A DNA stretch of 29,533 bases from an uncultured Candidatus Saccharibacteria bacterium (GTDB lineage: Bacteria > Patescibacteriota > Minisyncoccia > Phycocordibacterales > UBA1006), in assembly GCA_964425795.1 (NCBI GenBank), contig CAYRNU010000001.1:1-29533 (forward strand), read 5' to 3'. The notes beneath the pieces were generated by a model. The model was not told the origin of the DNA. It worked only from the letters and a program-made list of their open reading frames with translations, and made no database searches. Shown one piece after another: positions 15,324 through 29,333 of this stretch. Numbering within the stretch: position 1 is the first letter of the stretch; each line of letters begins with the position of its first letter. Made by a program: the position numbers and the translations under genes.

Positions 15324-15920
15324 TTAGAAACCGAAGTTTCTTAATTTATTAGCTATATTACTTAGAGTACTGCCATCAAGTCGACTTGGGGCATTGTTAT
15401 CTTTAGAGTCGTTAATACCTTCAGCTCTAGCTGGTTTTCTCTCATCTTGAAACCCAATGGCTTTCCATTGCAGAGTTACATTAGATAGTTGATCAACTCT
15501 GATATCTTCAGCTCGTGAAGTAATCATAGCCTTACCAGTGTAAAACAATAACTGATCGTTAACGTCTCTCACTTCGATTGTGATGTACTGTTGAAATAAG
15601 AAATTAAGTGCGTCTGGTTGCCATAACTCAGTTCCAGCTGATTGACCTGGAATATGGAGTGCTGACATAGTGCCGTCCACTGTGATTCTTTGTGGGGCAA
15701 GTTCTGCAGGAAAATAGTCGTCGATAGTGTTAATCTCAGTTACTGTCGTGTTGATTCTCCAAGAGATACCAAAACAGAAACCTACAACCTTACCGTTGAT
15801 TTTAAGAATAGTACGAGCACCAGACGAGTATTTCGCTGATGGCTTAGTAGAGAAAACACCAGAAACATTCTGTGCTAAGTTATCTCCAATATTGTTCGGT
15901 CTATTATTAAAACCTGACAT
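15324..15920 (-). CDS. Tail tube protein paralog 3
   Basis: SGARTILKINGKVVGFCFGISWRINT...AELAPQRITVDGTMS aligns with the two upstream tube paralogs. Confidence 0.75.
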   Translation of the reverse strand: MSGFNNRPNNIGDNLAQNVSGVFSTKPSAKYSSGARTILKINGKVVGFCFGISWRINTTVTEINTIDDYFPAELAPQRITVDGTMSALHIPGQSAGTELWQPDALNFLFQQYITIEVRDVNDQLLFYTGKAMITSRAEDIRVDQLSNVTLQWKAIGFQDERKPARAEGINDSKDNNAPSRLDGSTLSNIANKLRNFGF

Positions 15921-15928
15921 CTATATCC

Positions 15929-16522
15929 TTAAAATTGCTGGCCAACGCCAGAGAAGTCTGCTACGAAACTATCTTCGTCTACGTATAAAGCAACGAAGTT
16001 AAAGCGCTGTGTAGCTACGCCACGCTTAGATAATGAAAAATCTGATTGAGTAATTCTTACGTTACGAATGTTTGCAACACCGATATCGTTTCCATTTCCA
16101 GTCTTTTGATAGACTTGAATATCGAAAGTTACACCATTTGAAAGTTTACTAGGATCAAGAGCTTCGTGGGCACGGCCGTCATTTCCAACTCCGTTACGAG
16201 CTAAGAAATCACTTCCACTATTTCCCCAAGCTGTTCCCCAGTTACCGATACCGTTACCAGCATCGTTACCGACTACACCTTGTGGAAGTTTACCTTTAAC
16301 AGCATCTTCAACACCTTTAGCATAACGTACAACAGTGAAGCTCCCTGAAACCGTGTATCCGAGTGGTTCCACTGAAGATCCTTCATACATACCTAATACT
16401 TTAGGAGTTTGAGTAAGAACATTAACTGAATAAGATAAATCAGTGCAGAAGGCCATGGTCTTATCATTGACCTTCACTTTCGCGTTTGCACCCGTAATGA
16501 AGAAAGGTTTAATACCTGACAT
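15929..16522 (-). CDS. Tail tube protein paralog 2
   Basis: FITGANAKVKVNDKTMAFCTDLSYSV...VEPLGYTVSGSFTVVRY; C-terminal NVRITQSDFSLSKRGVATQRFNFVALYVD. Confidence 0.8.
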   Translation of the reverse strand: MSGIKPFFITGANAKVKVNDKTMAFCTDLSYSVNVLTQTPKVLGMYEGSSVEPLGYTVSGSFTVVRYAKGVEDAVKGKLPQGVVGNDAGNGIGNWGTAWGNSGSDFLARNGVGNDGRAHEALDPSKLSNGVTFDIQVYQKTGNGNDIGVANIRNVRITQSDFSLSKRGVATQRFNFVALYVDEDSFVADFSGVGQQF

Positions 16523-16542
16523 CTACACTGATCTCCAGTTAA

Positions 16543-17106
16543 TTACGATAAGTCTGTATCGCCAGAGTATGATGAATCGAAAGATTCGTCATCAGCTAAG
16601 ATACCAACAAAAGAAAGACGGTCAACTAAGATACCACGTTTATTCAACGAAGCACTCTTACGTGTGAAACGGCAATCTTTGATTGTGATGAACTCAACAG
16701 AGTCTGTCACAGTAGCAGTTCCACCAGCAGCAGTTGCGCCAGTTTGTTCTTTTTGGAAAACAGATAAATCCCATGTTTGAGATAACAAAATGTTTCCTGG
16801 GTTGATTTCGTTAGCGCCGTTTCCACCAGTAGTGTAATCGACTTTACCTAAACCGTTACCACCTGTGTTCGTTCCAGGCATATTGTTTGTCTTAGCAATT
16901 CCAGTGTAACGAACAACTGATAATTCACCAGCTACTGAGTAGTTTACTGGTTCGTTAGTTACTGCTTCATATCGACCCATTGTTTCGATAGGAATAGTAT
17001 CTACGGCTACTTGATATGATACGTCAGCTGCATAAGCAAACGTCTTACCGCCTACTTTAATCTTAGCATTCGCACCTGTGATAAATGAGGGCTTTTTACC
17101 TGCCAT
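16543..17106 (-). CDS. Tail tube protein paralog 1 (probable start MAGKKPS at 17106)
   Basis: First gene after the sheath; FITGANAKIKVGGKTFAYAADVSY...NEPVNYSVAGELSVVRY; RBS AAGGA before ATG 17106. Confidence 0.82.
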   Translation of the reverse strand: MAGKKPSFITGANAKIKVGGKTFAYAADVSYQVAVDTIPIETMGRYEAVTNEPVNYSVAGELSVVRYTGIAKTNNMPGTNTGGNGLGKVDYTTGGNGANEINPGNILLSQTWDLSVFQKEQTGATAAGGTATVTDSVEFITIKDCRFTRKSASLNKRGILVDRLSFVGILADDESFDSSYSGDTDLS

Positions 17107-17153
17107 TTGAGTTCCTTTTGGTCTTGTGGTTGACCTTACCATCCATTTTTTTA

Positions 17154-17259: not shown

Positions 17260-19479
17260 TTAAGCTGTTTGAGTTGCGCGTTGCAGAGTGATATCTGCTA
17301 ACACGAAATCGATACCTTCAACTAATTTCACAACTACTGCGATATTAACAGTGTTACCGTTAATTTGAACAACTAATTGTTTGAAACCGTTTTTAGCATC
17401 AGAAGTAGAAACAGTAATACCTTGAGCTAAGTAAGTTGCAAGGATAGCCTCACAAGTACTCTTAATCTCAGCAGCAGAAACTGTGTTCTTCAATCCAACA
17501 TAGATATTCTCTAATTGGTTACGGAAGTCGTAAGCCAATACGTCTGAAGCGTACAACACGTTACCACGGTTGTTAACCCAGTTTCCATCCTTATTGTAAG
17601 TTGTATTATCAACTACAAGGCGGAATCCACCAGTTTGAGGAGCTTCCCAGAACGTTAAAGCGTTCGCGATAGCATCGTCGTACTGTGTATCTGGATCAAA
17701 ATCAACAACGATATCTTGCTCAGCAGTGCTCATTGGTTGAGCCGTTTGACGGATACCTGACATGTTGAAGTATTTGAATGTCATTGGGTTACCAATTGGT
17801 GAACCACCGCGTGCACCAGCAAGTAATGCTGCGCCAGCCCATGGTTGGAACCACTTGATGTTACCTTCAGAATCTGTTTGACGAATGTCTTGGATTACCA
17901 TTTGGATGCGAGCAGCAGCCATTGTAGCAATCTTAACTTTAGCGTCAGAATAAGATCCTTTGAAAGATAAGTAACCTTGTCTTTCAGATTTTTTCTTAGT
18001 AGTAGACATCAAGCTTAAGTGAGTTTTCACGGCTTGGTGGATACCATCGATAGTATATGTAGAAGCAGCATCAGTCAATTGGTCAGCAATATCATCAGCG
18101 GCATCGCGTGAGAATAAAGGAACAACAGAGTTAACACGGAACTTCTCGAACTTACTTAATGCAGTAACGATATCAGCAGAAGCAGTAGCTCCTTTTGAAC
18201 CGCCAGATAAGTAAATAGCATTTGGCACGCCTTGTTGATCTGGAAGACCAACTTTCTTAACGCTTGATTGGCTCACTAGAGGAATTAATTCAACTTGTGA
18301 AGACAATGCGAAGAAGTCAGCAACTTTTTTAGCATCTTGTTTGATGCGAGCAGGCATAGCACCTGAAGCAGCATGAAATGCACCAGTTGCAGCAACTTGG
18401 TCTAATACTGAAAGAGACAATTGTCCTAACAATACTGAACCAGCTTGTGCGATCCAACCTGGAAGTGTGTTTACGTAATCAACTAAAGCTTGAACATTTG
18501 GGAAGTCAGCTTTATTTAATACATAAGAAGTAGGTGTTGCGCCAGTTTGTGAAAGAGTAACTGAAGAAGCAGACACCGCTACAGTTGCAGCAGTTGCGCC
18601 ACCAGTTGAATCACGACCCATCATCAACACGATTTCGCCACCAACTGTTTGACTCTCTTCAAGAGTAGTAACAGGGTTACGAACAGTTAATGTAGCCATT
18701 GGTTCAGAAGCAGCAGCAGTCCAACCAGCAACGTGGCCGATTGATACAAGTGCTGTACCACCAGTGATTTCCATTGAACGACCAGAACCATTTTGATTCA
18801 AGTTAGATCCAGCAGCCATTGCAATTTCAATTGATGTTCCATCGGCTGATACTTCCCAGCTAGAACCCATTGCAGTTTGAATAGCAGCAGCTAAAGCAGC
18901 AGCGTTCGCGTACGAAGCAGCAGCGATAGTTGAAGTAACAGAAGCACCACCGTTTTGACGAGCGATGATTGTGTCGTTAGATGCAGAAGTAATTACTACT
19001 GGGTAAGTTGGAGCTGATCCAGTTACCGCAGCAGGAGTTTCTGCCGTTAATACGTTTTTAAAAGTAATTTGATTTCCTGACGTTCCCCATTGACGAGCAC
19101 GAAGACGACCGAAATCAGTTGCACCAGCTTCGATTGAAGCAAGTTCAGCACGAATAGATGCGTTTGTTTTGTAGATGTAAATCGCTTGCGCTCCACCTGG
19201 GATTGCACCGTCTGCTCCAGGAGCAAACAAGAAGTTACATGCGTCTACTAAATTACCGCGTCCATATTTGTCACGGATTTGAGCCATTTGATCTGGACCA
19301 AATACGTTATTAGCGATGTTTGTTTCTGCAGAGCCAGGAGCTCCTGCATCCGCTTCTCCAAATACTGCAACGATACCAGTTGGAGAAAGAGGAAATCCTC
19401 CGCCAAGGTCGATTGTAGTCTTAGAGTAAGCACCTGGTTTGAAAATGGTTGCACCATTAAAGCTTACATTAATTGCCAT
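17260..19479 (-). CDS. Contractile tail sheath protein
   Basis: 739 aa; N-terminal FNGATIFKPGAYS...GIVAVFGEADAGAPG; C-terminal sheath domain LYASDVLAYDFRNQLE...VVVKLVEGIDFVLADITL; RBS AGGAG. Confidence 0.92.
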   Translation of the reverse strand: MAINVSFNGATIFKPGAYSKTTIDLGGGFPLSPTGIVAVFGEADAGAPGSAETNIANNVFGPDQMAQIRDKYGRGNLVDACNFLFAPGADGAIPGGAQAIYIYKTNASIRAELASIEAGATDFGRLRARQWGTSGNQITFKNVLTAETPAAVTGSAPTYPVVITSASNDTIIARQNGGASVTSTIAAASYANAAALAAAIQTAMGSSWEVSADGTSIEIAMAAGSNLNQNGSGRSMEITGGTALVSIGHVAGWTAAASEPMATLTVRNPVTTLEESQTVGGEIVLMMGRDSTGGATAATVAVSASSVTLSQTGATPTSYVLNKADFPNVQALVDYVNTLPGWIAQAGSVLLGQLSLSVLDQVAATGAFHAASGAMPARIKQDAKKVADFFALSSQVELIPLVSQSSVKKVGLPDQQGVPNAIYLSGGSKGATASADIVTALSKFEKFRVNSVVPLFSRDAADDIADQLTDAASTYTIDGIHQAVKTHLSLMSTTKKKSERQGYLSFKGSYSDAKVKIATMAAARIQMVIQDIRQTDSEGNIKWFQPWAGAALLAGARGGSPIGNPMTFKYFNMSGIRQTAQPMSTAEQDIVVDFDPDTQYDDAIANALTFWEAPQTGGFRLVVDNTTYNKDGNWVNNRGNVLYASDVLAYDFRNQLENIYVGLKNTVSAAEIKSTCEAILATYLAQGITVSTSDAKNGFKQLVVQINGNTVNIAVVVKLVEGIDFVLADITLQRATQTA

Positions 19480-19872: not shown

Positions 19873-20616
19873 TTAAATGTTCATATCTTCATCGCCGTCG
19901 TCATCTCCGACTCGGCTAACTTTAATCCCGTCGTTAGCTGTGATATCGACATCTTGGATATCGACATCTAGAGAGGTAGCTATGTCACTAGCCGGCTCCA
20001 ATCCAACTGCAGGATCAACGTTAATGCTGTCGACTTGGTGAAACGATTCTGAGCTCCAAAAGTTCTGAGTCGTACAACGAAATCTAACCCAACGAGTCCA
20101 GATATTCTCTGTCATCTTAGCATTATCTTTATTATAGTCTGAGGCTGAAAAGGTATGTAATTTCAATCCTAATCTGTGGGCCATCAGTTTATGTTTAAAT
20201 AGAATATAAGCCACCATGTAGTACATCCATAGTACGTGGTCGCCGGCTTTATTAGCGTGGACCCCAATGTCAACCATAGCGGTAAATACACCAGTTCCAG
20301 TTTCACCGTTCTCGTCAAATACTCCAGCATAGTCACCAATAGAGGCTTTAGACTCATCTTCGGTTTCATTAGCTAAGTGAACTGAGATACAAGGAATAAC
20401 TTGAGCATTGAAGCTCCAAGCCTTAACTACAGGTATCTTAGTTGTAGAGAACCATTTCCAGACTTCGTCTAGATATTTCTGACCATAGTCATCATTTAGT
20501 TCATCTTGTTTGAACTGACAAAATAAATCATAGAACTCAGCCTTATTAGAACGCAGTTGTTTAATTCCGTGCTCCAATACTTTCTGTACTACGATCTCAG
20601 GCATTACAAATGACAT
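19873..20616 (-). CDS. Putative tail completion / terminator-like neck protein
   Basis: 247 aa just upstream of the sheath; IPCISVHLANETEDE and TRWVRFRCTTQ pattern; assignment mostly by synteny. Confidence 0.55.
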   Translation of the reverse strand: MSFVMPEIVVQKVLEHGIKQLRSNKAEFYDLFCQFKQDELNDDYGQKYLDEVWKWFSTTKIPVVKAWSFNAQVIPCISVHLANETEDESKASIGDYAGVFDENGETGTGVFTAMVDIGVHANKAGDHVLWMYYMVAYILFKHKLMAHRLGLKLHTFSASDYNKDNAKMTENIWTRWVRFRCTTQNFWSSESFHQVDSINVDPAVGLEPASDIATSLDVDIQDVDITANDGIKVSRVGDDDGDEDMNI

Positions 20617-21026
20617 TAGAAACCACCTTTACTTAGATTATCATTCCACCACAAAGGTTGAAGATTTGTGTAATGGCAGGCTTTCTTTAATTCTTCTGGG
20701 TTAGTTAAATCAAACGCCGATAACGGAACGATATGATCGATATGCCAACCTTTAACGCCTCTATTACTCCAATTCATATCAGGAGTGAATTTAGATTCTA
20801 AGTAGCTTTTGAATTCTTCTATAGAGCAACCTAGGTCACGCACAGCAGATCCATTTTTACAATTAATACTAATAGCCTTGTTTAGGCGATTTCTAAGAAG
20901 ATTACGAAGCTTTTCAGATTCAGTCATAGGATTAAGTCGACGCCACTCTCTTTGCTTGGCATTTACATAGTCACGATTGACTTCTTTCCATTTTTTAGAG
21001 CTTATCTTATTTTTAAGTCTGCTCAT
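20616..21026 (-). CDS. Free-standing HNH homing endonuclease
   Basis: LGCSIEEFKSYLESKF...NWSN.G..GWHIDHIVPLSAFDL...CHYTNLQPLW..DNLSKG is a characteristic HNH family motif; TAATG overlaps with both neighbours. Confidence 0.85.
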   Translation of the reverse strand: MSRLKNKISSKKWKEVNRDYVNAKQREWRRLNPMTESEKLRNLLRNRLNKAISINCKNGSAVRDLGCSIEEFKSYLESKFTPDMNWSNRGVKGWHIDHIVPLSAFDLTNPEELKKACHYTNLQPLWWNDNLSKGGF

Positions 21027-21670
21027 TAAAATCCCTCTTCATAGCTACGAATGATCCTATAGATGACATCATCGTGGGACTCCGCTAAGAGGTTATTAAT
21101 CTCTTTTAAGTCTTCAGTGAAGTCTTTTTCTTTAGCAGGCTGAACCCATTGTGTAGCGCGGTTCTGCTTACTAGTAGCCGTTCTGAATTCAACCTTTGAA
21201 CCCTTTGGCTTTACCTTATTATACTGAGCTAACGCTGTAGCATACCTTTCGGCTGCAATAGCTTTCTGAGCATCAAATATATTGTTCTGGATAGGTGGAC
21301 GCTTTTGACCACCATCCCCACCAACTGGAATAATCTTATAAACCCCTGAACCATCGTTCATTGGCTTAGCTCCCTTAGCTAAAAGTCTATCTAGCATAGG
21401 CATTGGTGGCTCACTGAAATCAGTGATACCAGAGTCCGTATCTAATACGAATGCGTCTGGTCTAGGACGTAAGGAGTTAATGAAGTCAGAAGAGTCTTTT
21501 TGAACACCCGACTGAACTGCCATTTCCATACCTGAGTCCATGATCTCTCTTAAGGCAAGAGAAATCTCAGTCTCGGCTTTAGAGGCGATTTCTTCTACGA
21601 ATTCTTCCTCTATGCCTTTGGCGCGCAATACGTCTTTAAGTCTATTAAGTTCTAAGAATATATTAAGCAT
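21026..21670 (-). CDS. Hypothetical neck/head-tail region protein
   Basis: 214-aa ORF coupled to its neighbours within the head-tail joining block; no family recognised with certainty. Confidence 0.6.
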   Translation of the reverse strand: MLNIFLELNRLKDVLRAKGIEEEFVEEIASKAETEISLALREIMDSGMEMAVQSGVQKDSSDFINSLRPRPDAFVLDTDSGITDFSEPPMPMLDRLLAKGAKPMNDGSGVYKIIPVGGDGGQKRPPIQNNIFDAQKAIAAERYATALAQYNKVKPKGSKVEFRTATSKQNRATQWVQPAKEKDFTEDLKEINNLLAESHDDVIYRIIRSYEEGF

Positions 21671-23192
21671 CTGTCTTCTCGCGCTTTACAACTTTAGCAC
21701 GCATGTCGTGCAAGAAGTTTTGTTTCTCAAGATCAGTCCAGTCTGAACCGAAAGAGATCTTGATTGTTCCGTTAGGAGAGATCTCAACTTGAGGGCGCGG
21801 AAGATAAGGGTAGTGCTCATCATGAATGCGGGCATGGTTAGGTTTGCCAGCAGTAACAGCAGTTACCGTCTCAGGCTTCTTTCCCATGATATCGATCTTA
21901 TTTGCAAGGTCTCTTAATTTAGCCTCAAGTTCATCAATCTCTTTTCCTGCCATATCGGCAAGTTCATTGTGCTTACTAGAAACAGTGTGAATCGTATCTT
22001 CAAGCTTATCAAACAGCTTCATAATACGAGCTTCGACTTGTTGTAAGTCGATAGCAGCACCGTTGCGAATTTGCTCACGAATTGTTTCCATCTCTTGATA
22101 GATGTTTCCAATATTGTGGCGCTTATAATTCTCGATAAGAGTTTGCACTCCACCGTGTAATACATCATCTTCGATTGCGTCATCATGAATATCATTCATG
22201 AAGTCTTCATCTTCAGGCAAATACCATTCGAAAACAGACATCAGAGCTGCAGTAGTCTCAGGAAGTGATTTATTAGTCCATTGATAGATCATCTTGTGAC
22301 CATCTTCAACGCGACCAGAATAAACATCATTCATGTGTTTACGAATAGAAATCTTGTAAGTATCTAAATGAATATCTTTAAAGTCTTCGTCTTTCATGTC
22401 CTTAACTTCTTCACGAAGTTTACGGAACATTCCATTACCAACTAAACGAAGTGCATCACCATGAGTAACTTCAAGAACTGCATCGCTTTTTTGACGAATA
22501 ACGTTCTTCTCAAGTTTCTCTAATGCGATCATACCAGTAAGTGATTTGCCAAGTTTTTGGCGAACGAATTGCTCTAAAGGTTTATGGCAACAATCACGTA
22601 GATCGTCCCAAGGAATGTCATCGACATCAAACCATTTAGGATCTTTTAATTCATCAGTAGATTTAGGTTCACCAGTGAAGCTTTCAATAAGAAACACATC
22701 GCAGTGATTACCATTTAACTTACCAGACCAAATCTTTTGTGGATTACGTCCAGTAATTCCCATCTCTTCTTTTAACTCACGAAGAGCACAGATAGATTTG
22801 TCACCATCAGCCATATCCATGTGACCACCAGCGAATGCCATGCCGCCAGTGCTGTGACGACCTAACAAGATTCTGTTGTTGTCATCCATTACTAATGCTG
22901 CAGCTGCGTGACCTTCATAGTGATCTTCAAAAGACTTCTTAAGTTCCTTTTTAGACTTCTTACGCTTGTGACGTTCTTCTTTAACTTTTTCTTTAGCTTT
23001 TGCGTGGTGATGTTCAGACCATGAACCTCCACGATTTTCACCGTGTTGTTCAGGGGCATCTTTTCCAGGGGCTGAGTACTTCGCTGCAACCGATTTAGGA
23101 GGCGTGCCACGTCCACCTTTGGATGCGTCTGCTTTGCCATGTAAAATGGCTTGCATTAAGCGATATTGTTTTCTAGATACAGCTTGTGGCAT
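21663..23192 (-). CDS. Nudix hydrolase domain-containing protein with basic N-terminus and C-terminal coiled coil (probable virion/internal protein)
   Basis: Nudix box variant AGGHMDMADGDKSICALRELKEEMGI, preceded by AAAALVMDDNNRILLGRH; heptad region FDKLEDTI...LEAKLRDLANKID. Confidence 0.8.
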   Translation of the reverse strand: MPQAVSRKQYRLMQAILHGKADASKGGRGTPPKSVAAKYSAPGKDAPEQHGENRGGSWSEHHHAKAKEKVKEERHKRKKSKKELKKSFEDHYEGHAAAALVMDDNNRILLGRHSTGGMAFAGGHMDMADGDKSICALRELKEEMGITGRNPQKIWSGKLNGNHCDVFLIESFTGEPKSTDELKDPKWFDVDDIPWDDLRDCCHKPLEQFVRQKLGKSLTGMIALEKLEKNVIRQKSDAVLEVTHGDALRLVGNGMFRKLREEVKDMKDEDFKDIHLDTYKISIRKHMNDVYSGRVEDGHKMIYQWTNKSLPETTAALMSVFEWYLPEDEDFMNDIHDDAIEDDVLHGGVQTLIENYKRHNIGNIYQEMETIREQIRNGAAIDLQQVEARIMKLFDKLEDTIHTVSSKHNELADMAGKEIDELEAKLRDLANKIDIMGKKPETVTAVTAGKPNHARIHDEHYPYLPRPQVEISPNGTIKISFGSDWTDLEKQNFLHDMRAKVVKREKTDA

Positions 23193-24138: not shown

Positions 24139-24172
24139 GATTGTAGACTTAATCTGAAACAAATGGGATGTA

Positions 24173-24430
24173 ATGGGTATTTTGAATAAAATCATCGAAG
24201 AAGACGGATCCTGCACTCTTTGGGCTAGCCCATCTATTTGTGCTCAATGTCCATTAAGTAAATTAAAACAGAAACCTGATGGTACGTATCTGAGTTGTGT
24301 TGAAGCACTAGGTGTTGACAATATGACAGAGGAAGAGGCTGATGCTCGATATAAAGAGGTCGCAAGTCGCATACTGTTAGATGAGGCTATCGACGATATC
24401 CTTGGAGAGTCAGATGGCTCTCAGCAATAA
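24173..24430 (+). CDS. Small Cys-rich protein (paralog A)
   Basis: ILNKIIEEDGSC...ICAQCPL...SC; related to the next ORF. Confidence 0.7.
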   Translation: MGILNKIIEEDGSCTLWASPSICAQCPLSKLKQKPDGTYLSCVEALGVDNMTEEEADARYKEVASRILLDEAIDDILGESDGSQQ

Positions 24431-24656
24431 TGATGCTAATATTCTAGAACAAATAGTTCAATTAGAGGGAAAGTGCATGGATTCCCAGAGGTGTAAATTA
24501 TGTCCGTTCCGTGTAATGTGTCTACCAGAATTCATAAATCCAAATCCGCCAAGTCCAGAACAGCGAATGAAGATGTCGCTCGACGTACTTGCTCATCATG
24601 CTCTTGTGGACGATCTCCCCTTGGAAGCGACCGAATACAAATGGGACAAAAAGTAA
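24414..24656 (+). CDS. Small Cys-rich protein (paralog B)
   Basis: SD GGAG then ATG 24414; ILEQIVQLEGKCMDSQRCKLCPFRVMC. Confidence 0.7.
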   Translation: MALSNNDANILEQIVQLEGKCMDSQRCKLCPFRVMCLPEFINPNPPSPEQRMKMSLDVLAHHALVDDLPLEATEYKWDKK

Positions 24657-24757
24657 GCGACGTCTTATTCTTAAAAGAAAAGCAAGATCGCGCCAAGTAT
24701 AATCTTCTTATGGTATTAGTAAAACTAAAACTAAGAAGCTTTTATGACGAACGATAA
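24641..24757 (+). CDS. Micro-protein, helix-motif family (KYNLLMVLVKLKL)
   Basis: 38 aa from ATG 24641; fills the gap between 24656 and 24744 with overlaps. Confidence 0.5.
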   Translation: MGQKVSDVLFLKEKQDRAKYNLLMVLVKLKLRSFYDER

Positions 24758-24959
24758 AGATGAAATCCAAAGAATCTTGGCTAAACTAGCTGAGGTACCA
24801 GTAGAAGAATTAGGTCTTATTGAGGGTCGCTATTGCGGACCATCTAATAGATTTTTATGCGAAAATAGATTTCACTGTTCTCCAAAACAACTTAAAAAAG
24901 TTTTAGATCAGTACATTACTAATAGAGCATTTGAAGAAATCATTCTAAATACCAAGTAA
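24744..24959 (+). CDS. Small Cys-containing protein (possible paralog C)
   Basis: IQRILAKLAE...C...LC...HC...AFEEII echoes paralogs A and B. Confidence 0.6.
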   Translation: MTNDKDEIQRILAKLAEVPVEELGLIEGRYCGPSNRFLCENRFHCSPKQLKKVLDQYITNRAFEEIILNTK

Positions 24960-24961
24960 TC

Positions 24962-24970
24962 TGTTATAAT
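24962..24970 (+). promoter_or_regulatory. Extended -10 TGTTATAAT
   Basis: Immediately after stop 24959; a GGAGG SD follows at about 24998-25002. Confidence 0.5.
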
Positions 24971-25007
24971 AGAGATACCAACCTTGATCCTAACATAGGA
25001 GGCGAAC

Positions 25008-25259
25008 ATGACTAAACTCAGTCAACTTACACAGTTCGCTTCTCTGTGCTCAAATAATATTCACAAAGGAAGTACTTATGGAAAAGCGTCAACCACGCCA
25101 GGTCCAAATTCAATTCAATTCAGCACAAGAGGCTATCAATCTCTATATGCAAATCGAATTAAAGCACTTTCTGGCCAGATTACTATATTCCCACTATACT
25201 GGCAGAGTATAATAGTAGGTAATGAGCCACAAGACTTGGGAACCACACGAAATCACTAA
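25008..25259 (+). CDS. Hypothetical ORF (uncertain; overlaps two motif-family ORFs)
   Basis: Strong GGAGG RBS, but it fully overlaps 25078-25212 in another frame. Confidence 0.3.
   Translation: MTKLSQLTQFASLCSNNIHKGSTYGKASTTPGPNSIQFSTRGYQSLYANRIKALSGQITIFPLYWQSIIVGNEPQDLGTTRNH
25078..25212 (+). CDS. Micro-protein, helix-motif family (ELKHFLARLLYSHY)
   Basis: MEKRQPRQVQIQFNSAQEAINLYMQIELKHFLARLLYSHYTGRV, 44 aa; RBS AAGGAAG. Confidence 0.6.
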   Translation: MEKRQPRQVQIQFNSAQEAINLYMQIELKHFLARLLYSHYTGRV

Positions 25260-25401
25260 GACAGATAGTAAGATGAAATTCTTCTATTTCCTGCGTGATT
25301 TAGGTATCAAGTCAGCTCAAGAGCCTGCTCAAATTACTTGGAAACGTCACATAGAAATATTAACTCATCTCTATAACGGAGCTTGGCATGAGGTTTCATA
25401 G
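25222..25401 (+). CDS. Micro-protein, helix-motif family (KFFYFLRDLGIKSA)
   Basis: 59 aa from ATG 25222 (or 42 aa from 25273); TATAAT at 25208-25213. Confidence 0.7.
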   Translation: MSHKTWEPHEITKTDSKMKFFYFLRDLGIKSAQEPAQITWKRHIEILTHLYNGAWHEVS

Positions 25402-25636
25402 ACTCACTGCCGACCAAATTAGTTCTGTACATAGACTCTATAATTTTCTAAGAAAGATGAAAGTTATTGGGATAGTTAATACAGTGACTGAGCAAGTAAG
25501 GTATACAGAGAGTGGTAAGCCGCTGCGCTACAATCTTAAATTTGTTTCTTATGATGGTTCAATGAAGGGTAAGCTTACTCCTGAGGAAAAGCTATCTGTT
25601 TATTTTAAATCACTTAGTCTTGTATTCGACGGTTAA
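25388..25636 (+). CDS. Micro-protein, helix-motif family (RLYNFLRKMKVIG)
   Basis: 82 aa, overlaps the previous ORF; possible weak hub-like segment after the motif. Confidence 0.7.
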   Translation: MRFHRLTADQISSVHRLYNFLRKMKVIGIVNTVTEQVRYTESGKPLRYNLKFVSYDGSMKGKLTPEEKLSVYFKSLSLVFDG

Positions 25637-25777
25637 GCGACAGCCTTCCATCCAACGCGCACCAAGATGTACGCGATCAAATCCAATACCTAATTTCATC
25701 AGTAGATAAAATAGAGGATACTTAGCGAACGGCTCACCGTTCTCGTCATCGAAGTCATATTGCCAAGTGATGCCCAT
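25610..25777 (-). CDS. Micro-protein, helix-motif family (PLFYLLMKLGIG)
   Basis: MGITWQYDFDDENGEPFAKYPLFYLLMKLGIGFDRVHLGARWMEGCRLTVEYKTK, 55 aa; TAATG-coupled to the upstream ORF. Confidence 0.65.
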   Translation of the reverse strand: MGITWQYDFDDENGEPFAKYPLFYLLMKLGIGFDRVHLGARWMEGCRLTVEYKTK

Positions 25778-25950
25778 TAGGCAGACTCCGTTATCCAGTG
25801 CGGTTTAACGTAAATTTCTTTTCCTGTCTTAGGAAGAGTGTACTTAATAGAACCCATGATACCTTCTGTTGCGCTAGCTTTAATAAGCTTCATCAACATC
25901 ATTTGCATTTTAGATCTTGGATCCATTTTTCTAGTGTAATATCTACTCAT
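25777..25950 (-). CDS. Micro-protein, helix-motif family (KMQMMLMKLIK)
   Basis: MSRYYTRKMDPRSKMQMMLMKLIKASATEG..., 57 aa; ATGA-coupled to the upstream ORF. Confidence 0.6.
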   Translation of the reverse strand: MSRYYTRKMDPRSKMQMMLMKLIKASATEGIMGSIKYTLPKTGKEIYVKPHWITESA

Positions 25951-26135
25951 ATTCTACTATCCGCCACCATTACGTGTATTCGTCCGTCATTGCCGAACCA
26001 GTAGATTGTACCGTCTTTATAAAATCCACCTTCGATACCATTGCTGATCGTCTTATATTTCAATAGCTTCATGGCAAGAAACATTACGTTGCGAACAGGG
26101 AATCTAGGATAGATAGTCCAGTCTGGTCGATTCAC
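25947..26135 (-). CDS. Micro-protein, helix-motif family (RNVMFLAMKLLK)
   Basis: 62 aa; ATGA overlaps on both sides. Confidence 0.6.
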   Translation of the reverse strand: MNRPDWTIYPRFPVRNVMFLAMKLLKYKTISNGIEGGFYKDGTIYWFGNDGRIHVMVADSRI

Positions 26136-26365
26136 GGATAATTAGTAAGCGTTCTGAAGACGCTCTCCCACGGGAATTTAACAAATCGCTTATCTAGTCT
26201 ACATAAAACATATAAGAGTTTTTGGCGATGCAAGTCGCCTTCGATCATGTGAAGGTATGCTTTAAAAACAGAACCTTTTTCTAAGTCTTGGATAGGCGTA
26301 GATGAAACCATCCCCGCTATCATCGCGTCAAGAATTTCTTTGTACGTCTTTGGTGAAGAGCTCAC
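26132..26365 (-). CDS. Micro-protein: baseplate-J N-terminal mimic + helix motif
   Basis: GTG start 26365 after GGAAGG. KTYKEILDAMIAGMVSSTPIQDLEKGSV matches KSFNQILGDMIRKIIAETPLNDLNAGSV at 12/28, ungapped; then QKLLYVLCRLD. Confidence 0.75.
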   Translation of the reverse strand: MSSSPKTYKEILDAMIAGMVSSTPIQDLEKGSVFKAYLHMIEGDLHRQKLLYVLCRLDKRFVKFPWESVFRTLTNYP

Positions 26366-26409
26366 GAATATACCTTCCAACTGTAACGAACGCGACGTAC
26401 CAAGCTAAA

Positions 26410-26643
26410 CTAAGTATTAGACCCATCAGAGCCATCGCTATCAACAGTCTCGATAGGGATTGCTGTAATACCAGCATCAAAGCTTGCGTCTTTTGCATAA
26501 GCGACGTCTTGTCCATTTATCTTTAACCTCAAAAGTCTTCCTCTTAAGATGGAAGGCTTGTTATTTATTATAGCGCTTTTAATCCCCAATTTCTTGAGGA
26601 AGAATAAGAACTTTCTGTATTCCCAAGTGTCCCATTGAATCAT
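26410..26643 (-). CDS. Micro-protein: helix motif + tail-tube N-terminal mimic
   Basis: RKFLFFLKKLGIKSA, then KPSILRGRLLRLKINGQDVAYAKDASFDAGITAIPIET, 16/38 identical and ungapped to tube paralog 1. Confidence 0.8.
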   Translation of the reverse strand: MIQWDTWEYRKFLFFLKKLGIKSAIINNKPSILRGRLLRLKINGQDVAYAKDASFDAGITAIPIETVDSDGSDGSNT

Positions 26644-26822
26644 AATTTTGGTCCTGGCATTCTTCGCTTAAGTGTATATCCTCGTGGAAAACCTGCAGAT
26701 TTAATATCTAACTTTCTCAATAAAAACTTTAAATCCCTAATAGATTGTTGTTCTACAGTGAGTCCACCATAGTTACCTGGTACTCGCAGCGTAACCCCAC
26801 CAAATATTCTAGTTATAGCCAT
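26640..26822 (-). CDS. Micro-protein: tail-sheath N-terminal mimic + helix motif
   Basis: SD GGAG then ATG 26822. MAITRIFGGVTLRVPGNY vs sheath MAINVSFNGATIFKPGAY, 9/18 identical; then RDLKFLLRKLDIKSA. Confidence 0.78.
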   Translation of the reverse strand: MAITRIFGGVTLRVPGNYGGLTVEQQSIRDLKFLLRKLDIKSAGFPRGYTLKRRMPGPKL

Positions 26823-26892
26823 ACGTTCTCCGTCCCGCATTGAGAATTCGGCGGGGGCCCCTCAGATGCAATATACTGAGTTAGAGCATAGT

Positions 26893-27129
26893 TCATTTCT
26901 TCAACTTACTTGGATCAAATGTTGCTTTGCTTAGTGTCTTCTCTAAAGATTCAAATGCAGCGGCACCCATGAAAACTTGATCTGGTTTTCCGCCACTGTA
27001 CATTCCAACTTCAAGTGCTTCCATCAAATCAAGAATCATATCCTCACTAGAGAATTCTGCACTCTTAATTCCGAGCTTCTTCACGAAGTGTTTAAGTTTT
27101 CTGTATTGCTTTTTACTCTCAATGTTCAT
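26893..27129 (-). CDS. Micro-protein: helix motif + possible major-capsid-like segment
   Basis: RKLKHFVKKLGIKSA, then ...MYSGGKPDQVFMGAAAFESLEKTL; TATAAT 6 nt before the ATG. Confidence 0.7.
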   Translation of the reverse strand: MNIESKKQYRKLKHFVKKLGIKSAEFSSEDMILDLMEALEVGMYSGGKPDQVFMGAAAFESLEKTLSKATFDPSKLKK

Positions 27130-27141
27130 GAGAATATTATA

Positions 27142-27438
27142 CTAATTGCCGACGCCAGGGTTACGAGCTGTATACTGAGATTCCATGCGGCGAGCTGGCT
27201 TAACAACCTGCTTGATGTCTACGCGACCACCCTTTGGTACATCTCCGCCACCGAAGTCTTTCAGTGAACCTTTCTGTCCGGTATCCTTTGGCAAGTCACC
27301 GTTAAGATTGTGTTGAGTGCGAGCTGCGAAAGTAGCACTACCTGGTTTATAGTCAGACTTCGGTTGTTTCAAACCGTCACCAGTAGCTTTATGAAGCTCC
27401 CATTGTCCGCACTTATTAAACGTTAGATATTCGCTCAT
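27142..27438 (-). CDS. Small basic Gly-rich hypothetical protein (N-terminal LTFNKCGQWELHKA)
   Basis: 98 aa; TATAAT at 27445-27450, 6 nt before the ATG; lacks the family helix motif. Confidence 0.7.
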   Translation of the reverse strand: MSEYLTFNKCGQWELHKATGDGLKQPKSDYKPGSATFAARTQHNLNGDLPKDTGQKGSLKDFGGGDVPKGGRVDIKQVVKPARRMESQYTARNPGVGN

Positions 27439-27566
27439 GTAATGATTATATCATAGTCTGCATGGTACGCGGTCAAGAACGTCAAGTAGGCGTAAGGTCC
27501 AATCACTTTTAATTGAAGTAATAATAAAGCAAGGCTCTTCCTTATCTCGCGTTCCTCTTGTGTCAT
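27435..27566 (-). CDS. Micro-protein, helix-motif family (KSLALLLLQLKVIG)
   Basis: MTQEEREIRKSLALLLLQLKVIGPYAYLTFLTAYHADYDIIIT, 43 aa; ATGA overlap with 27438. Confidence 0.55.
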   Translation of the reverse strand: MTQEEREIRKSLALLLLQLKVIGPYAYLTFLTAYHADYDIIIT

Positions 27567-27577
27567 ACGTTCATTCG

Positions 27578-27688
27578 CTACACGAACTCACGTGCCTCAT
27601 CTTGGTGAACATACAAAGCTTGTTTGATTCCGAGCTTCTCTAAGAAGCTCGTTAATCTGAACGTGTTTGCCATACCCCACGGCTTCAT
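27578..27688 (-). CDS. Micro-protein, helix-motif family (RLTSFLEKLGIKQA)
   Basis: MKPWGMANTFRLTSFLEKLGIKQALYVHQDEAREFV, 36 aa; SD GGAG. Confidence 0.7.
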   Translation of the reverse strand: MKPWGMANTFRLTSFLEKLGIKQALYVHQDEAREFV

Positions 27689-27698
27689 CGTGTCTCCG

Positions 27699-27917
27699 TC
27701 ATGTTAATTCCAATTGCCAAGTTCGCCCGCTCGGCGAACTCGTCATGCTCCGGTACTCCGTTAGACGATTGTAATAAATTACATCGAGTTTCGTCAACAC
27801 TCCGATTAAGCTCTTGATGGATGCAGCCTCTTCCGGCTTATACCACCTTGACGTGTACCTCGATGCTACTACGTCCAGTCTTATATTAGATGTGGTGACT
27901 CTATGTGTGAGACTCAT
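27699..27917 (-). CDS. Micro-protein, helix-motif family (KSLIGVLTKLDVI), possible LysM-like fragment
   Basis: 72 aa; ATGA-coupled; N-terminal HRVTTSNIRLDVVASRY. Confidence 0.6.
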   Translation of the reverse strand: MSLTHRVTTSNIRLDVVASRYTSRWYKPEEAASIKSLIGVLTKLDVIYYNRLTEYRSMTSSPSGRTWQLELT

Positions 27918-28027
27918 GCAGACCTCTGTTTGACGCCGGTGGGCACGCCCAGCTTTTCCAGGAAATAGAACAACTTGTAGGTTTTATGTTTGCCCTCCAT
28001 GAGGGTCCAGAGTAGTTGACCGTTCAT
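27914..28027 (-). CDS. Micro-protein, helix-motif family (KLFYFLEKLGV)
   Basis: MNGQLLWTLMEGKHKTYKLFYFLEKLGVPTGVKQRSA, 37 aa; ATGA overlaps on both sides. Confidence 0.7.
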   Translation of the reverse strand: MNGQLLWTLMEGKHKTYKLFYFLEKLGVPTGVKQRSA

Positions 28028-28182
28028 GGTGTTGGTCTCTTTGGGGAGGAGATGTTGATGTAGAGCATGGCAGTAGACCTTTTGATTAATCCCATTTTGT
28101 ATAGCTGAAGGATGAGACGGCCTGTTGGGTTTATCTCGATTATGTATTGAGAGCCTGGGACTGAGTGGTAGCCTGGTTTCAT
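28024..28182 (-). CDS. Micro-protein, helix-motif family (RLILQLYKMGLIK)
   Basis: 52 aa from ATG 28182 after GAGGA; ATGA overlaps on both sides. Confidence 0.6.
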   Translation of the reverse strand: MKPGYHSVPGSQYIIEINPTGRLILQLYKMGLIKRSTAMLYINISSPKRPTP

Positions 28183-28334
28183 TTGTCCTCTAGTGGTAGG
28201 GTGTTCCACCCAAGTGTAGGGGTTCCAGTGTAGGAAATGAGTTGGATTACCTTAAGTTTATTTAGGAAATTATGTAGCTTGAATAGGGGAAGGTTGTCTT
28301 TTTTATATTCGAAGTGTCCGTGAGAGATTTCCAT
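28179..28334 (-). CDS. Micro-protein, helix-motif family (KLHNFLNKLKVI)
   Basis: MEISHGHFEYKKDNLPLFKLHNFLNKLKVIQLISY..., 51 aa; GGTATAAT 7 nt before the ATG. Confidence 0.65.
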   Translation of the reverse strand: MEISHGHFEYKKDNLPLFKLHNFLNKLKVIQLISYTGTPTLGWNTLPLEDK

Positions 28335-28388
28335 ATTTTATATTATACCAATAGGGGTACCGGGTTAAGGTTTGCCTATTAGGTTTAG

Positions 28389-28625: not shown

Positions 28626-28719
28626 TTTATAGAAAAAGCTTATGTACAGAAAGAGTTGGCCGCGTGAGGCTCCCTGAAACTAGGGGTTCCCTTTTATGCT
28701 AAGGCTAGCGGGCGCCTAT

Positions 28720-28815
28720 TTCCTGAAGCTATAACATATCATAACGACGCAGCGCTGATGAAAAGCTTTGCATCGATATGAGATGATTCCTGAAACTAAC
28801 AATAAGTATAACGAC
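28720..28815 (+). promoter_or_regulatory. Two copies, 67 nt apart, of TTCCTGAARCTA-N9-ATAACGAC upstream of the first plus-strand gene
   Basis: 28721-28748 vs 28788-28815 match at 20/28; a third half-site CCTGAAACTA at 28673-28682. Confidence 0.5.
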
Positions 28816-28842
28816 AATAACAAAAATACTGGGAGGTATTGA

Positions 28843-29307
28843 ATGTCACAAGTTACACAAAAAGAAGCGGTATTCCAAGCGGTTTGCAATGTTACAGGTT
28901 TTAACGGCGAAGGCGTGTGTGAGATTACGTCTGAGCAACGCAAGCAAGTGAACGCGATCTTGTTTGAGGGTTTCAAGTCGGGCAAGATCCAAATCGAGAC
29001 GATGCCTGACGACGCTGCGCTTAAGGGATACGTGAGTGGATTGCAGTCGAATTGGTTACGCAAGGACACTCGCTTGAACGGTGGTATGAAGTATACAGCT
29101 AAGAACCCTGGTTCTCGCGCTGGTTCGTCTGACCCATCTCTGAAAGCGATGCGCGCTTTGTTGAGCACAGTTAAGACTGACGAAGAGCGTGCTGAGATCC
29201 AAGGCTTCATCGACCAACGCGTGTCTGAGTTATCGATCACTAAACAAGCTAAGACTGTTGACTTCTCTGCTCTACCTGCTGAGCTTGCTGCGAAGTTCAG
29301 CAAGTAA
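28843..29307 (+). CDS. Hypothetical protein (154 aa), first gene of the plus-strand (probably early) unit
   Basis: Strong SD GGGAGGT; biased codon usage typical of highly expressed genes; no family recognised. Confidence 0.85.
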   Translation: MSQVTQKEAVFQAVCNVTGFNGEGVCEITSEQRKQVNAILFEGFKSGKIQIETMPDDAALKGYVSGLQSNWLRKDTRLNGGMKYTAKNPGSRAGSSDPSLKAMRALLSTVKTDEERAEIQGFIDQRVSELSITKQAKTVDFSALPAELAAKFSK

Positions 29308-29333
29308 TAAAGAAGGACGAATGACCCAATCCG

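What the first reader, a model, noticed from the sequence alone, without database searches (positions are those of the whole stretch)
26640..26822. Micro-protein starts with a copy of the sheath N-terminal arm
MAITRIFGGVTLRVPGNY vs MAINVSFNGATIFKPGAY: 9/18 identical from Met1. Five of the nine identical residues use different codons (GCT/GCA, ATA/ATT, GGG/GGT, ACG/ACC, TAT/TAC), indicating selection on the peptide. The sheath N-terminal arm is the beta-strand donated to neighbouring subunits in contractile sheath lattices, so it is an ideal assembly-interfering or decoy peptide.
Basis: partly seen in the sequence, partly recalled or inferred. Interest (0 to 1): 0.8.

Follow-up and report, generated by a model that had tools for sequence, protein, structure and literature searches.

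The report
Phage micro-protein copying the sheath arm
A 60-residue phage protein really does begin with a diverged but selected copy of the tail sheath's N-terminal "handshake" arm, and it belongs to a widespread, undescribed family of such mimics whose function is still untested.

Summary
Observation confirmed. The ORF at 26640-26822 (minus strand) starts MAITRIFGGVTLRVPGNY, which matches the sheath (17260-19479) at 9 of 18 residues in register from Met1. Five of the nine shared residues use different codons.

Taken alone in this window, the match is only borderline. It becomes solid in context:
- In-register score for residues 4-24 is 34. The next best of 706 candidate starts scores 12.
- At least 15 non-redundant homologues from other phages and metagenomes share the layout of arm plus amphipathic helix tag (h-x-x-h-L-x-K-L-G-h). 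Some also carry a tail-tube-like hairpin.
- A profile of the family aligns to the sheath profile at columns 1-28 against 1-28 (hhalign, 94% probability, E 1e-7).
- Selection acts on the peptide. One allele pair shows 6 synonymous and 0 non-synonymous changes (p 7e-5); another gives dN/dS 0.26 overall and 0.13 in the arm.

The gene is accessory. It is absent from several relatives, and its body is swapped for a different arm-plus-tag allele in near-identical phages.

The function was not shown. My best guess (0.35) is a strand mimic that occupies the sheath's handshake acceptor at the assembly level. The rivals are a decoy for a host sensor and an exapted hairpin. The first-stage reader also noted the neighbouring tube-like and baseplate-like mimics in this window.

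The parts
26640..26822 (-). Micro-gene, 60 codons plus stop: sheath-arm-like N-terminus, helix tag and a short basic tail
   Evidence: ORF and translation. Gene callers of public collections call it as a 66-aa form from the upstream ATG (P0001). There are at least 15 non-redundant homologues, and sister alleles are under purifying selection.
26769..26822 (-). Codons 1-18, the copy of the sheath N-terminal arm (MAITRIFGGVTLRVPGNY)
   Evidence: 9/18 identical in register. In-register outlier. Profile-profile E 1e-7. AF2 of the homologue P0011 predicts a beta-hairpin at 2-7 and 10-15, with low confidence.
26694..26738 (-). Residues 29-43, RDLKFLLRKLDIKSA: the helix tag shared by the array of small ORFs at about 24.1-28.4 kb
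   Evidence: In-window BLAST links among the small ORFs. The motif was seen in the translations and in arrays across a 146-kb relative. It is predicted helical in P0011 (residues 23-37, pLDDT 66-72).
26828..26831 (-). GGAG ribosome-binding site, 5 nt before the ATG
   Evidence: Read directly from the sequence.
26644..26790 (-). Body of the micro-gene (about codons 11-60), replaced by an unrelated-looking 98-99 nt in near-identical phages
   Evidence: Joints 26643 to 26790/26791 in contigs of two wastewater runs. The replacing allele is a 44-aa arm-plus-tag protein (L066-L068). The flanks are about 97-100% identical.
17260..19479 (-). Tail sheath gene (739 aa), the source of the copied arm
   Evidence: phrog_279 tail sheath, E 3e-26 over the full length. 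The AF2 model matches the phage 812 sheath.
19426..19479 (-). Sheath codons 1-18, MAINVSFNGATIFKPGAY, the N-terminal arm
   Evidence: Nearly invariant in 29 related sheaths (alignment A2). Disordered in the monomer model.
26410..26643 (-). Next micro-gene (77 aa): helix tag plus a copy of the tail-tube N-terminal strands. Its start overlaps the stop of the arm micro-gene
   Evidence: 41% identity over 39 aa to tube residues 17-55, E 6e-8 in-window. hhalign of the family against the tube profile: 96.9%, E 1.4e-10. In P0003, P0004 and P0011 this segment is fused behind the arm and tag in one protein.
26132..26380 (-). Third micro-gene (82 aa): copy of the N-terminus of the giant baseplate-wedge (J-like) protein, plus a helix tag
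   Evidence: 39% identity over 33 aa to residues 6-38 of the 1-6165 ORF. The best 20-aa window scores 48 against a null maximum of 38. The giant ORF matches phrog_6, baseplate wedge.

Best explanation
The ORF is a real, translated accessory gene of an uncultivated phage with a contractile tail and a genome of about 150-175 kb, found in bioreactor and wastewater metagenomes. It belongs to an undescribed family of proteins 44-89 residues long. Each member has three parts: (i) a diverged copy of the sheath's first 18-20 residues, the N-terminal arm that sheath subunits donate to the domain I sheet of a neighbouring disc; (ii) an amphipathic helix tag; and (iii) in some members, a copy of the first strands of the tail tube protein.

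The mechanism I think most likely is beta-strand mimicry at the level of tail assembly. The arm-like hairpin would occupy the acceptor site that normally receives a sheath N-arm. That site is free on unassembled sheath subunits and on the last, head-proximal disc. In the fused forms, the tube-like hairpin would dock on the neighbouring tube end. The protein would then cap or hold subunits, acting as an assembly brake, chaperone or end cap.

What is shown: descent from or likeness to the arm, selection on the peptide, family-wide conservation and accessory status. What is inferred: the binding partner and the effect on assembly.

I put about 0.6 on the arm working as a functional mimic of the sheath arm for some partner, and 0.35 on the partner being the sheath itself.
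For: - In-register likeness to the arm in 16 sequences (15 non-redundant). The family consensus MAI.v.FNG.TI..PG.YG compares with sheath MAINVSFNGATI[FY]KPGAYS at 6-13 of 18 identities, and hhalign gives E 1e-7 with columns 1-28 against 1-28.
- No DNA-level copying, so the likeness is held by selection on the protein.
- Purifying selection in two allele pairs.
- The residues the family keeps are the hydrophobic and turn positions that are also invariant in the sheath: I3, F7, N8-G9, T11-I12, P15-G16, Y18.
- The copied region is the flexible arm of a true sheath. Such arms are donated between subunits (PMC13433997; PMC10457771).
- In three proteins from two groups (P0003/P0004 and P0011), the arm copy and a tube copy sit in one polypeptide, separated by a helix of about 15 residues. 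W keeps a remnant of the tube-like strand (RGYTLKRRM), and L014 and perhaps P0016 look similar. The growing end of a tail is one place where both acceptors lie side by side.
- The two next genes copy N-terminal segments of the tube and of the baseplate wedge, so the theme is tail-protein termini.
Against: - No binding evidence of any kind.
- The gene is absent from several relatives in which 9 kb or more upstream of the sheath is covered (L009, L010-12, L026/32, L027/28), so it is not a core assembly factor.
- It evolves fast, and whole alleles are swapped between near-identical phages, although its presumed target, the sheath, is extremely conserved. That pattern fits an arms-race gene better.
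- Several sheath-invariant surface positions are not kept in the family. N4, S6, A10 and A17 vary, F/Y13 becomes basic in most members, and K14 becomes hydrophobic in about half.
- The conserved positions are largely those that any beta-hairpin with N-G and P-G turns would need.
- The AF2 model of the family is of low confidence (mean pLDDT 54).
Confidence: 0.35

Rival explanations
1. Decoy for a host immune sensor. The invariant sheath arm (and likewise the tube and wedge N-termini) is what a host defence protein recognises. The micro-protein presents a non-activating copy that saturates or disables the sensor.
For: - The gene is accessory and patchily distributed, and it lies in an array of small hypervariable genes.
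- A whole-allele swap with sharp boundaries occurs between otherwise near-identical phages, while each allele is itself under purifying selection. This is the pattern expected of an arms-race gene.
- Family-specific departures from the sheath sequence occur at sheath-invariant positions. S19 is Gly in nearly all members, and K14 is hydrophobic in about half.
- There is a precedent that tail proteins trigger defence and that phages carry inhibitors: DSR2, the tail tube protein and DSAD1 (PMC11087589, PMC10981675).
Against: - No host, no defence system and no sensor are known for this phage.
- No described anti-defence protein works by copying a piece of the trigger, and DSAD1 is not described as tube-like.
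- Fusing a sheath copy and a tube copy in one chain has no obvious use for a decoy.
- Timing of expression is unknown. The promoter scan was uninformative and no RNA run holds the gene.
Confidence: 0.25
2. Exapted fragment. An ancestral capture of the 5' ends of tail genes gave small proteins a ready-made beta-hairpin that now simply forms part of their own beta-beta-alpha(-beta-beta) mini-fold. The function belongs to the helix-tag family (for example host take-over) and has nothing to do with the sheath.
For: - The positions conserved between the family and the sheath are mostly hairpin-determining: hydrophobic alternation, an N-G turn and a P-G turn.
- AF2 predicts hairpin, helix, hairpin for P0011.
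- About 18 other tag-bearing small ORFs in the window, and dozens in a 146-kb relative, show no likeness to any large protein.
- Many sheath-invariant surface residues are not kept.
Against: - Three adjacent genes copy the N-termini of three different tail proteins that are not adjacent in the tail operon. That is hard to explain without selection for tail-protein likeness.
- The family stays centred on the sheath sequence: family members are on average nearer to the sheath arm than to each other.
- The AF2 model is weak.
Confidence: 0.25
3. Decaying relic of a partial duplication of the sheath gene, or a chance resemblance, with no function.
For: - In this window alone the unanchored similarity is no better than the best null hit (BLAST E 0.41).
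- 'MAI' also starts the tape-measure-like and wedge proteins.
I did not test it.
Against: - Conserved as an intact ORF, with a ribosome-binding site, in at least 15 non-redundant homologues.
- 6 synonymous and 0 non-synonymous changes in one allele pair (p 7e-5). dN/dS is 0.26 in another (p 0.008).
- Profile-profile E 1e-7.
- In-register outlier.
Confidence: 0.05

Closest known systems
Handshake-strand partners of contractile sheaths: the sheath initiator (gp25/TssE-like handshake domain) and tail terminator or completion proteins
   Same: These are non-sheath proteins that join the inter-subunit beta-sheet of sheath domain I through strand augmentation (phage 812 initiator: PMC13433997). The proposed action of the micro-protein uses the same kind of contact.
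   Different: - The micro-protein has no sequence or family match to them (Pfam and PHROGs empty).
- It copies the donated arm rather than the acceptor strands.
- It is encoded outside the tail operon, is accessory and is hypervariable.
- The window has its own gp25-like baseplate protein at 6205-7806.
Eukaryotic 'microProteins' (small proteins that keep only the interaction module of a larger relative and act by titrating its partners, such as Id or LITTLE ZIPPER). Cited from my own knowledge, not checked in papers here.
   Same: The micro-protein is small, is related by sequence to one interaction segment of a large protein of the same genome, and is proposed to act by competition.
   Different: The setting is a phage, the module is an 18-residue strand arm rather than a folded domain, it is fused to a family-specific helix tag, and the action is untested.
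Phage inhibitors of defence systems that sense tail proteins (DSAD1 against DSR2)
   Same: A small phage protein that would keep a tail-protein sensor silent (PMC11087589, PMC10981675).
   Different: DSAD1 is not described as a sequence copy of the tube protein. No sensor of sheath arms is known. No homology was tested or found.
Truncated sheath-gene copies left by partial duplication
   Same: A short ORF with the N-terminal part of a sheath protein.
   Different: Here the copy is only about 20 residues long, is fused to an unrelated helix tag, lies 7 kb from the sheath gene, is conserved in many lineages and is under purifying selection.

Membership tests
Tail sheath proteins (phrog_279 / contractile sheath fold) | Sheath domains I and II (several hundred residues) matching the family profile | tested here: not met
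   The 60-aa protein has no PHROG or Pfam hit. Only columns 1-28 align to the sheath profile. It is a copy of the arm, not a sheath.
Arm-plus-tag micro-protein family (defined here) | N-terminus from Met1 with M-A-I-x3-F-N/x-G-x-T/x-I/L-x2-P-G-x-Y-G | tested here: met
   The window protein fits at M1 A2 I3 F7 G9 T11 L12 P15 G16 Y18 G19 (alignment A6; table).
Arm-plus-tag micro-protein family (defined here) | Amphipathic helix tag h-x-x-h-L-x-K-L-G/D/N/K-h about 10-12 residues after the arm | tested here: met
   LKFLLRKLDI at residues 31-40, with Asp in place of the usual Gly.
Arm-plus-tag micro-protein family (defined here) | Position in the small-gene array upstream of the head-tail block of phages with this sheath type | tested here: met
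   Same neighbourhood (p98, p78, tube-like and J-like genes, then the virion protein, NUDIX protein and sheath) in W, L003/4, L014, L021, L067, L069 and L074.
Sheath initiator (gp25/TssE-like) | GPW_gp25/LysM-like fold with a two-stranded handshake domain | tested here: not met
   No Pfam or PHROG match for the micro-protein. The gp25-like match in the window is in the 533-aa ORF 6205-7806.
microProtein-type competitive regulators | Small protein related by sequence to an interaction segment of a larger protein of the same genome | tested here: met
   hhalign E 1e-7 to sheath columns 1-28. In-register test.
microProtein-type competitive regulators | Binds the partner of the larger protein and blocks the productive complex | not testable with these tools
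   Needs binding and assembly assays.
Anti-defence decoys (DSAD1-like) | Binds and silences a host sensor of a tail protein | not testable with these tools
   Host and defence repertoire are unknown. Only the precedent was read.

The most novel reading that the evidence does not exclude
Phages of this group carry a modular kit of 'self-mimic' micro-proteins. Each joins a common helix tag to a short copy of the conserved N-terminal interface of one of the phage's own tail proteins (sheath arm, tube hairpin, baseplate-wedge helices). The copies are exchanged as alleles between strains. The kit would act either as a new class of trigger-mimicking immune decoys or as peptide-level regulators or caps of contractile-tail polymerisation. 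Neither has been described for any phage.
Probability: 0.5. Interest if true: 0.85.

Novelty: new variant of a known kind. Interest (0 to 1): 0.7.

Why it matters
If the arm copy is functional, it shows that a phage uses an 18-residue copy of its own sheath's handshake strand as a tool. That would give a natural peptide ligand for the site that holds all contractile sheaths together, in phage tails, tailocins, type VI secretion systems and extracellular injection systems. Such a ligand would be useful for probing or blocking sheath polymerisation.

If the partner is instead a host sensor, this would be the first case of an anti-defence protein built as a sequence copy of the trigger. It would also point to the sheath arm as an immune target.

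Either way, the family is easy to test, because the proteins are small and their homologues carry natural variation. It also shows that tiny unannotated ORFs in phage arrays can be decoded by comparing them with the termini of the phage's own structural proteins.

Tried and rejected
- Complex prediction of sheath residues 31-739 with the micro-protein: the tool returned 'no answer' (score 0.00, partner pLDDT 37-42). It counts neither for nor against binding.
- Pfam and PHROGs on the micro-protein and its neighbours: no family.
- ESM Atlas look-alikes: no usable hit.
- blastn of 25.5-28.0 kb against GenBank phages: no match. The nearest isolated phage by sheath is Myxococcus phage Mx1 at 33% identity.
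- Word-based search of 5.8 billion proteins with the single sequence: it found only itself. The profile search added P0004 and the library copies of the L003 and L021 proteins (P0003, P0005). The exhaustive HMM search was needed to see the family.
- Four large hits of that HMM search were discarded. P0013 and P0020 are translated CRISPR arrays, and P0018 and P0021 show only scattered sub-threshold Pfam fragments.
- Recent gene conversion from the sheath gene: rejected. Nucleotide identity is 30-34 of 54, and synonymous sites differ in four lineages.
- Mimicry as a general property of the tag family: rejected. In the 146-kb relative only the arm/tube protein matches a large protein.
- A copy of the sheath C-terminal arm: none appeared among the top matches.
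- Sequence mapping of the arm onto a solved sheath: the PDB profile search aligns only residues 300-668 to phage 812, so the arm assignment rests on the AF2 model and the literature.
- Promoter and terminator scan: fewer sites than in shuffles, so uninformative.
- Expression: no listed run is on record as RNA. The 'RNA-Seq' wastewater runs are probably DNA, and contigs cannot show expression.
- Co-variation of micro-protein arms with sheath arms: not testable, because the sheath arm hardly varies in the loci recovered.

Full report
**Setting**

The window is the whole of contig C1 of a 587-kb, 81-contig metagenome bin. It is a phage fragment.

On the minus strand lies a contractile-tail module:
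- a sheath gene at 17260-19479 (739 aa; phrog_279, E 3e-26);
- three tube paralogues at 16543-17142, 15929-16522 and 15324-15920;
- a 959-aa tape-measure-like ORF;
- baseplate genes, including a gp25-like part in 6205-7806;
- an ORF of more than 2055 aa whose N-terminus is that of a baseplate wedge (phrog_6).

Upstream, at about 24.1-28.4 kb, lies a dense array of ORFs of 36-98 codons. Many of them share a helix motif, h-x-x-h-L-x-K-L-G-I-(K-S-A).

Relatives in IMG/VR are phage contigs of up to 175 kb, with sheaths 50-83% identical. The nearest cultured phage is Myxococcus phage Mx1, at 33% sheath identity. The DNA occurs in bioreactor and wastewater metagenomes.

**The observation**

The ORF at 26640-26822 (minus strand) encodes 60 residues starting MAITRIFGGVTLRVPGNY. 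The sheath starts MAINVSFNGATIFKPGAY. Nine of 18 residues are identical in register from Met1. A GGAG lies 5 nt before the ATG, and the stop overlaps the start of the next gene (ATGA).

**Is it more than chance?**

Within the window alone, and without using the register, it is not. The best 20-residue window scores 38, the same as the best hit against reversed small proteins, and BLAST gives E 0.41. 'MAI' also begins the tape-measure-like and wedge proteins.

With the register, it is.
- Leaving out 'MAI', residues 4-24 score 34 against the sheath, while the next best of 706 candidate starts in the window scores 12.
- Among 10,736 starts in 27 related loci (mean -18.6, sd 11), the top five non-sheath scorers are this ORF, three homologues and a probable, more divergent homologue in L015.
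- The full 24-mer scores 47. One hundred shuffled queries scanned over about 15 times more sequence reached at most 44.

**The family**

Homologues with the same layout (arm, about 10 residues, helix tag) occur in several lineages:
- IMG/VR relatives L003/L004, L014, L015 and L021;
- close relatives of the window phage, L066-L068;
- a 174-kb NCBI metagenome contig, L069-L071;
- eight further clusters found by an exhaustive HMM search of 1.84 billion representatives: P0011, P0012, P0014-P0017, P0019 and P0022.

Four large hits of that HMM search were set aside as false; two of them are translated CRISPR arrays.

The family consensus for the arm is MAI.v.FNG.TI..PG.YG followed by G or P. The sheath reads MAINVSFNGATI[FY]KPGAYS. 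Individual members share 6-13 of 18 residues with the sheath. A profile of the 16 sequences aligns to a profile of 18 sheaths at columns 1-28 against 1-28, with 94.3% probability and E 9.9e-8.

Family members are on average closer to the sheath arm than to each other. The sheath arm itself is nearly invariant in 29 related sheaths that are otherwise only 50-83% identical to the window's sheath.

**Selection**

There is no sign of recent copying at the DNA level. Nucleotide identity between each micro-gene arm and its own sheath gene is 30-34 of 54, and identical residues often use different codons, in four lineages.

Two pairs of close alleles could be compared.
- L066 against L067 (the 44-aa allele at the window's locus): 6 synonymous and 0 non-synonymous differences over 27 synonymous and 105 non-synonymous sites (p 7e-5).
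- L003 against L063: 9 synonymous and 9 non-synonymous differences. dN/dS is 0.26 overall (p 0.008) and 0.13 in the first 20 codons (p 0.01).

**Is the copied segment the handshake arm?**

The AF2 model of the sheath (18-row alignment, mean pLDDT 73) leaves residues 1-33 without structure (pLDDT below 50) and begins the core at strand 36-41. The model is a true sheath: its best PDB match is the phage 812 sheath, at E 4e-22.

In phage 812, the two-stranded sheet of domain I accepts the N- and C-termini of subunits of the next disc. This handshake is conserved across contractile systems (PMC13433997; PMC10457771).

The assignment is an inference from fold and position. Sequence alignment to a solved sheath does not reach the N-terminus.

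**Architecture and history**

In P0003/P0004 (the L003 type) and in P0011, one 88-89-residue protein carries the arm, the tag and then a copy of the first strands of the tail tube. The tube-like family aligns to the tube profile with 96.9% probability and E 1.4e-10.

In the window these parts are split over two overlapping genes.
- The arm gene keeps only the start of the tube-like strand (RGYTLKRRM, compared with KGYKLKLKI in L003).
- The next gene, 26410-26643, has its own tag plus the full tube-like segment.

The third gene, 26132-26380, copies residues 6-38 of the baseplate wedge protein.

AF2 on P0011 with the family alignment gives hairpin (2-7, 10-15), helix (23-37), hairpin (51-60, 63-73). 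Confidence is low (mean pLDDT 54).

**Accessory and fast-moving**

The arm gene is missing from several relatives in which at least 9 kb upstream of the sheath is covered (L009, L010-12, L026/32, L027/28). Its place relative to the conserved 98-aa gene also differs between lineages.

In contigs of two wastewater runs that are otherwise 90-100% identical to the window, positions 26644-26790 are replaced by 98-99 other letters. The recovered contigs show a different 44-aa arm-plus-tag allele, MAMSVRFVGVTINKPGLYG followed by its tag. Its arm is closer to the sheath (11 of 18, including K14). Identity resumes at the gene's borders.

**Interpretation**

The data establish a real, selected peptide that is a diverged copy of the sheath arm. 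They do not establish what it binds.

I favour strand mimicry at the level of tail assembly (0.35). One reason is that the fused forms place a sheath-arm copy and a tube-strand copy about one helix apart, which suits the end of a growing tail, where both acceptors are exposed. The other is that the neighbouring genes copy other tail-protein termini.

A decoy for a host sensor of tail proteins (0.25) fits the accessory, allele-swapping behaviour better. It has a loose precedent in DSR2, the tail tube protein and DSAD1.

An exapted hairpin that merely builds the protein's own fold (0.25) is not excluded, because the conserved positions are largely hairpin-determining and several sheath-invariant surface residues are not kept.

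A functionless relic or chance match (0.05) is contradicted by the conservation and the substitution pattern.

**Novelty**

No Pfam or PHROG family covers these proteins. I found no paper describing phage proteins that copy the sheath arm. The idea resembles the 'microProteins' of eukaryotes (from my own knowledge). It also resembles the handshake partners of sheaths, namely the initiator and terminator proteins. The object itself is still new: a short copy of the phage's own sheath arm on a shared helix tag, exchanged as alleles.

The first-stage reader also flagged the neighbouring mimics and the tag family in this same window (notes e1-5291028, -29, -30 and -33). I re-tested the tube-like and wedge-like matches and they hold.

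Noticed in passing
window 26410-26643 (-): A 77-aa ORF with the helix tag followed by a copy of tail-tube residues 17-55 (41% over 39 aa). hhalign of the family against the tube profile gives E 1.4e-10. In some relatives this segment is fused behind the sheath-arm copy in one protein.
   Followed up: yes
window 26132-26380 (-): An 82-aa ORF whose residues 11-43 copy residues 6-38 of the giant baseplate-wedge protein (39% identity), followed by a tag-like helix (LLYVLCRLDKRF). Homologues occur in L035, L068 and L069.
   Followed up: partly
window about 24170-28340, both strands; also G001 (146-kb relative) at about 67, 88-92, 104-106 and 123-126 kb: A large paralogous family of ORFs of 36-130 codons sharing only an amphipathic helix motif, h-x-x-h-L-x-K-L-G-I(-K-S-A), at variable positions. 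It has no Pfam or PHROG family, and its function is unknown.
   Followed up: partly
window 26644-26790, compared with L066-L068 and runs X7/X8: A sharp cassette-like allele replacement of the micro-gene body between phages whose flanks are about 97-100% identical. Both alleles co-occur in one wastewater sample: X7 also holds a contig identical to the window across the gene.
   Followed up: yes
window 27142-27438 (-): A 98-aa protein (starting MSEYLTFNKCGQWELHKA and ending ARNPGVGN), conserved across relatives at 33-77% identity and in no known family. It served as a useful anchor for the small-gene array.
   Followed up: partly
window 26893-27129 (-): A 78-aa tag protein with homologues in L003, L035, L067 and L069. 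By eye, the L035 homologue's N-terminus (HDATRYL) recalls the C-terminal motif of large terminases. Neither idea was tested. BLAST within a 146-kb relative found no match to a large protein.
   Followed up: no
window 28716-29310; G001 109777-109965 and 122158-122712: A 154-aa plus-strand ORF (28843-29307) lies in a stretch that is conserved in relatives and duplicated within the 146-kb relative. The similarity was detected through the opposite-strand frame (62% over 61 aa).
   Followed up: no
window 15324-17142 (-): Three consecutive tube-like paralogues of 197-199 aa. Tube1 and tube2 are 33% identical (E 3e-32), and tube3 is more distant. They are probably the tube plus initiator- or terminator-like derivatives.
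   Followed up: no
window 21663-23192 (-) and 20616-21026 (-): A 509-aa protein with a NUDIX domain (PF00293, E 3.5e-13) lies inside the head-tail block and is conserved in relatives. A 136-aa ORF between structural genes looks by eye like an HNH endonuclease (not checked).
   Followed up: no
whole contig C1 of G000: A phage contig (GC 40.9%) is binned with a 587-kb, 81-contig genome of about 44% GC that is scored as 91.5% complete. It may be mis-binned. No other contig of the bin matched the small proteins.
   Followed up: partly
P0013, P0020 (public protein library): 'Proteins' of 405-487 aa that matched the arm profile in 4-8 places are three-frame translations of CRISPR repeat arrays (recurring FNGARLREPGEG and similar). 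They are false gene calls in the library.
   Followed up: yes
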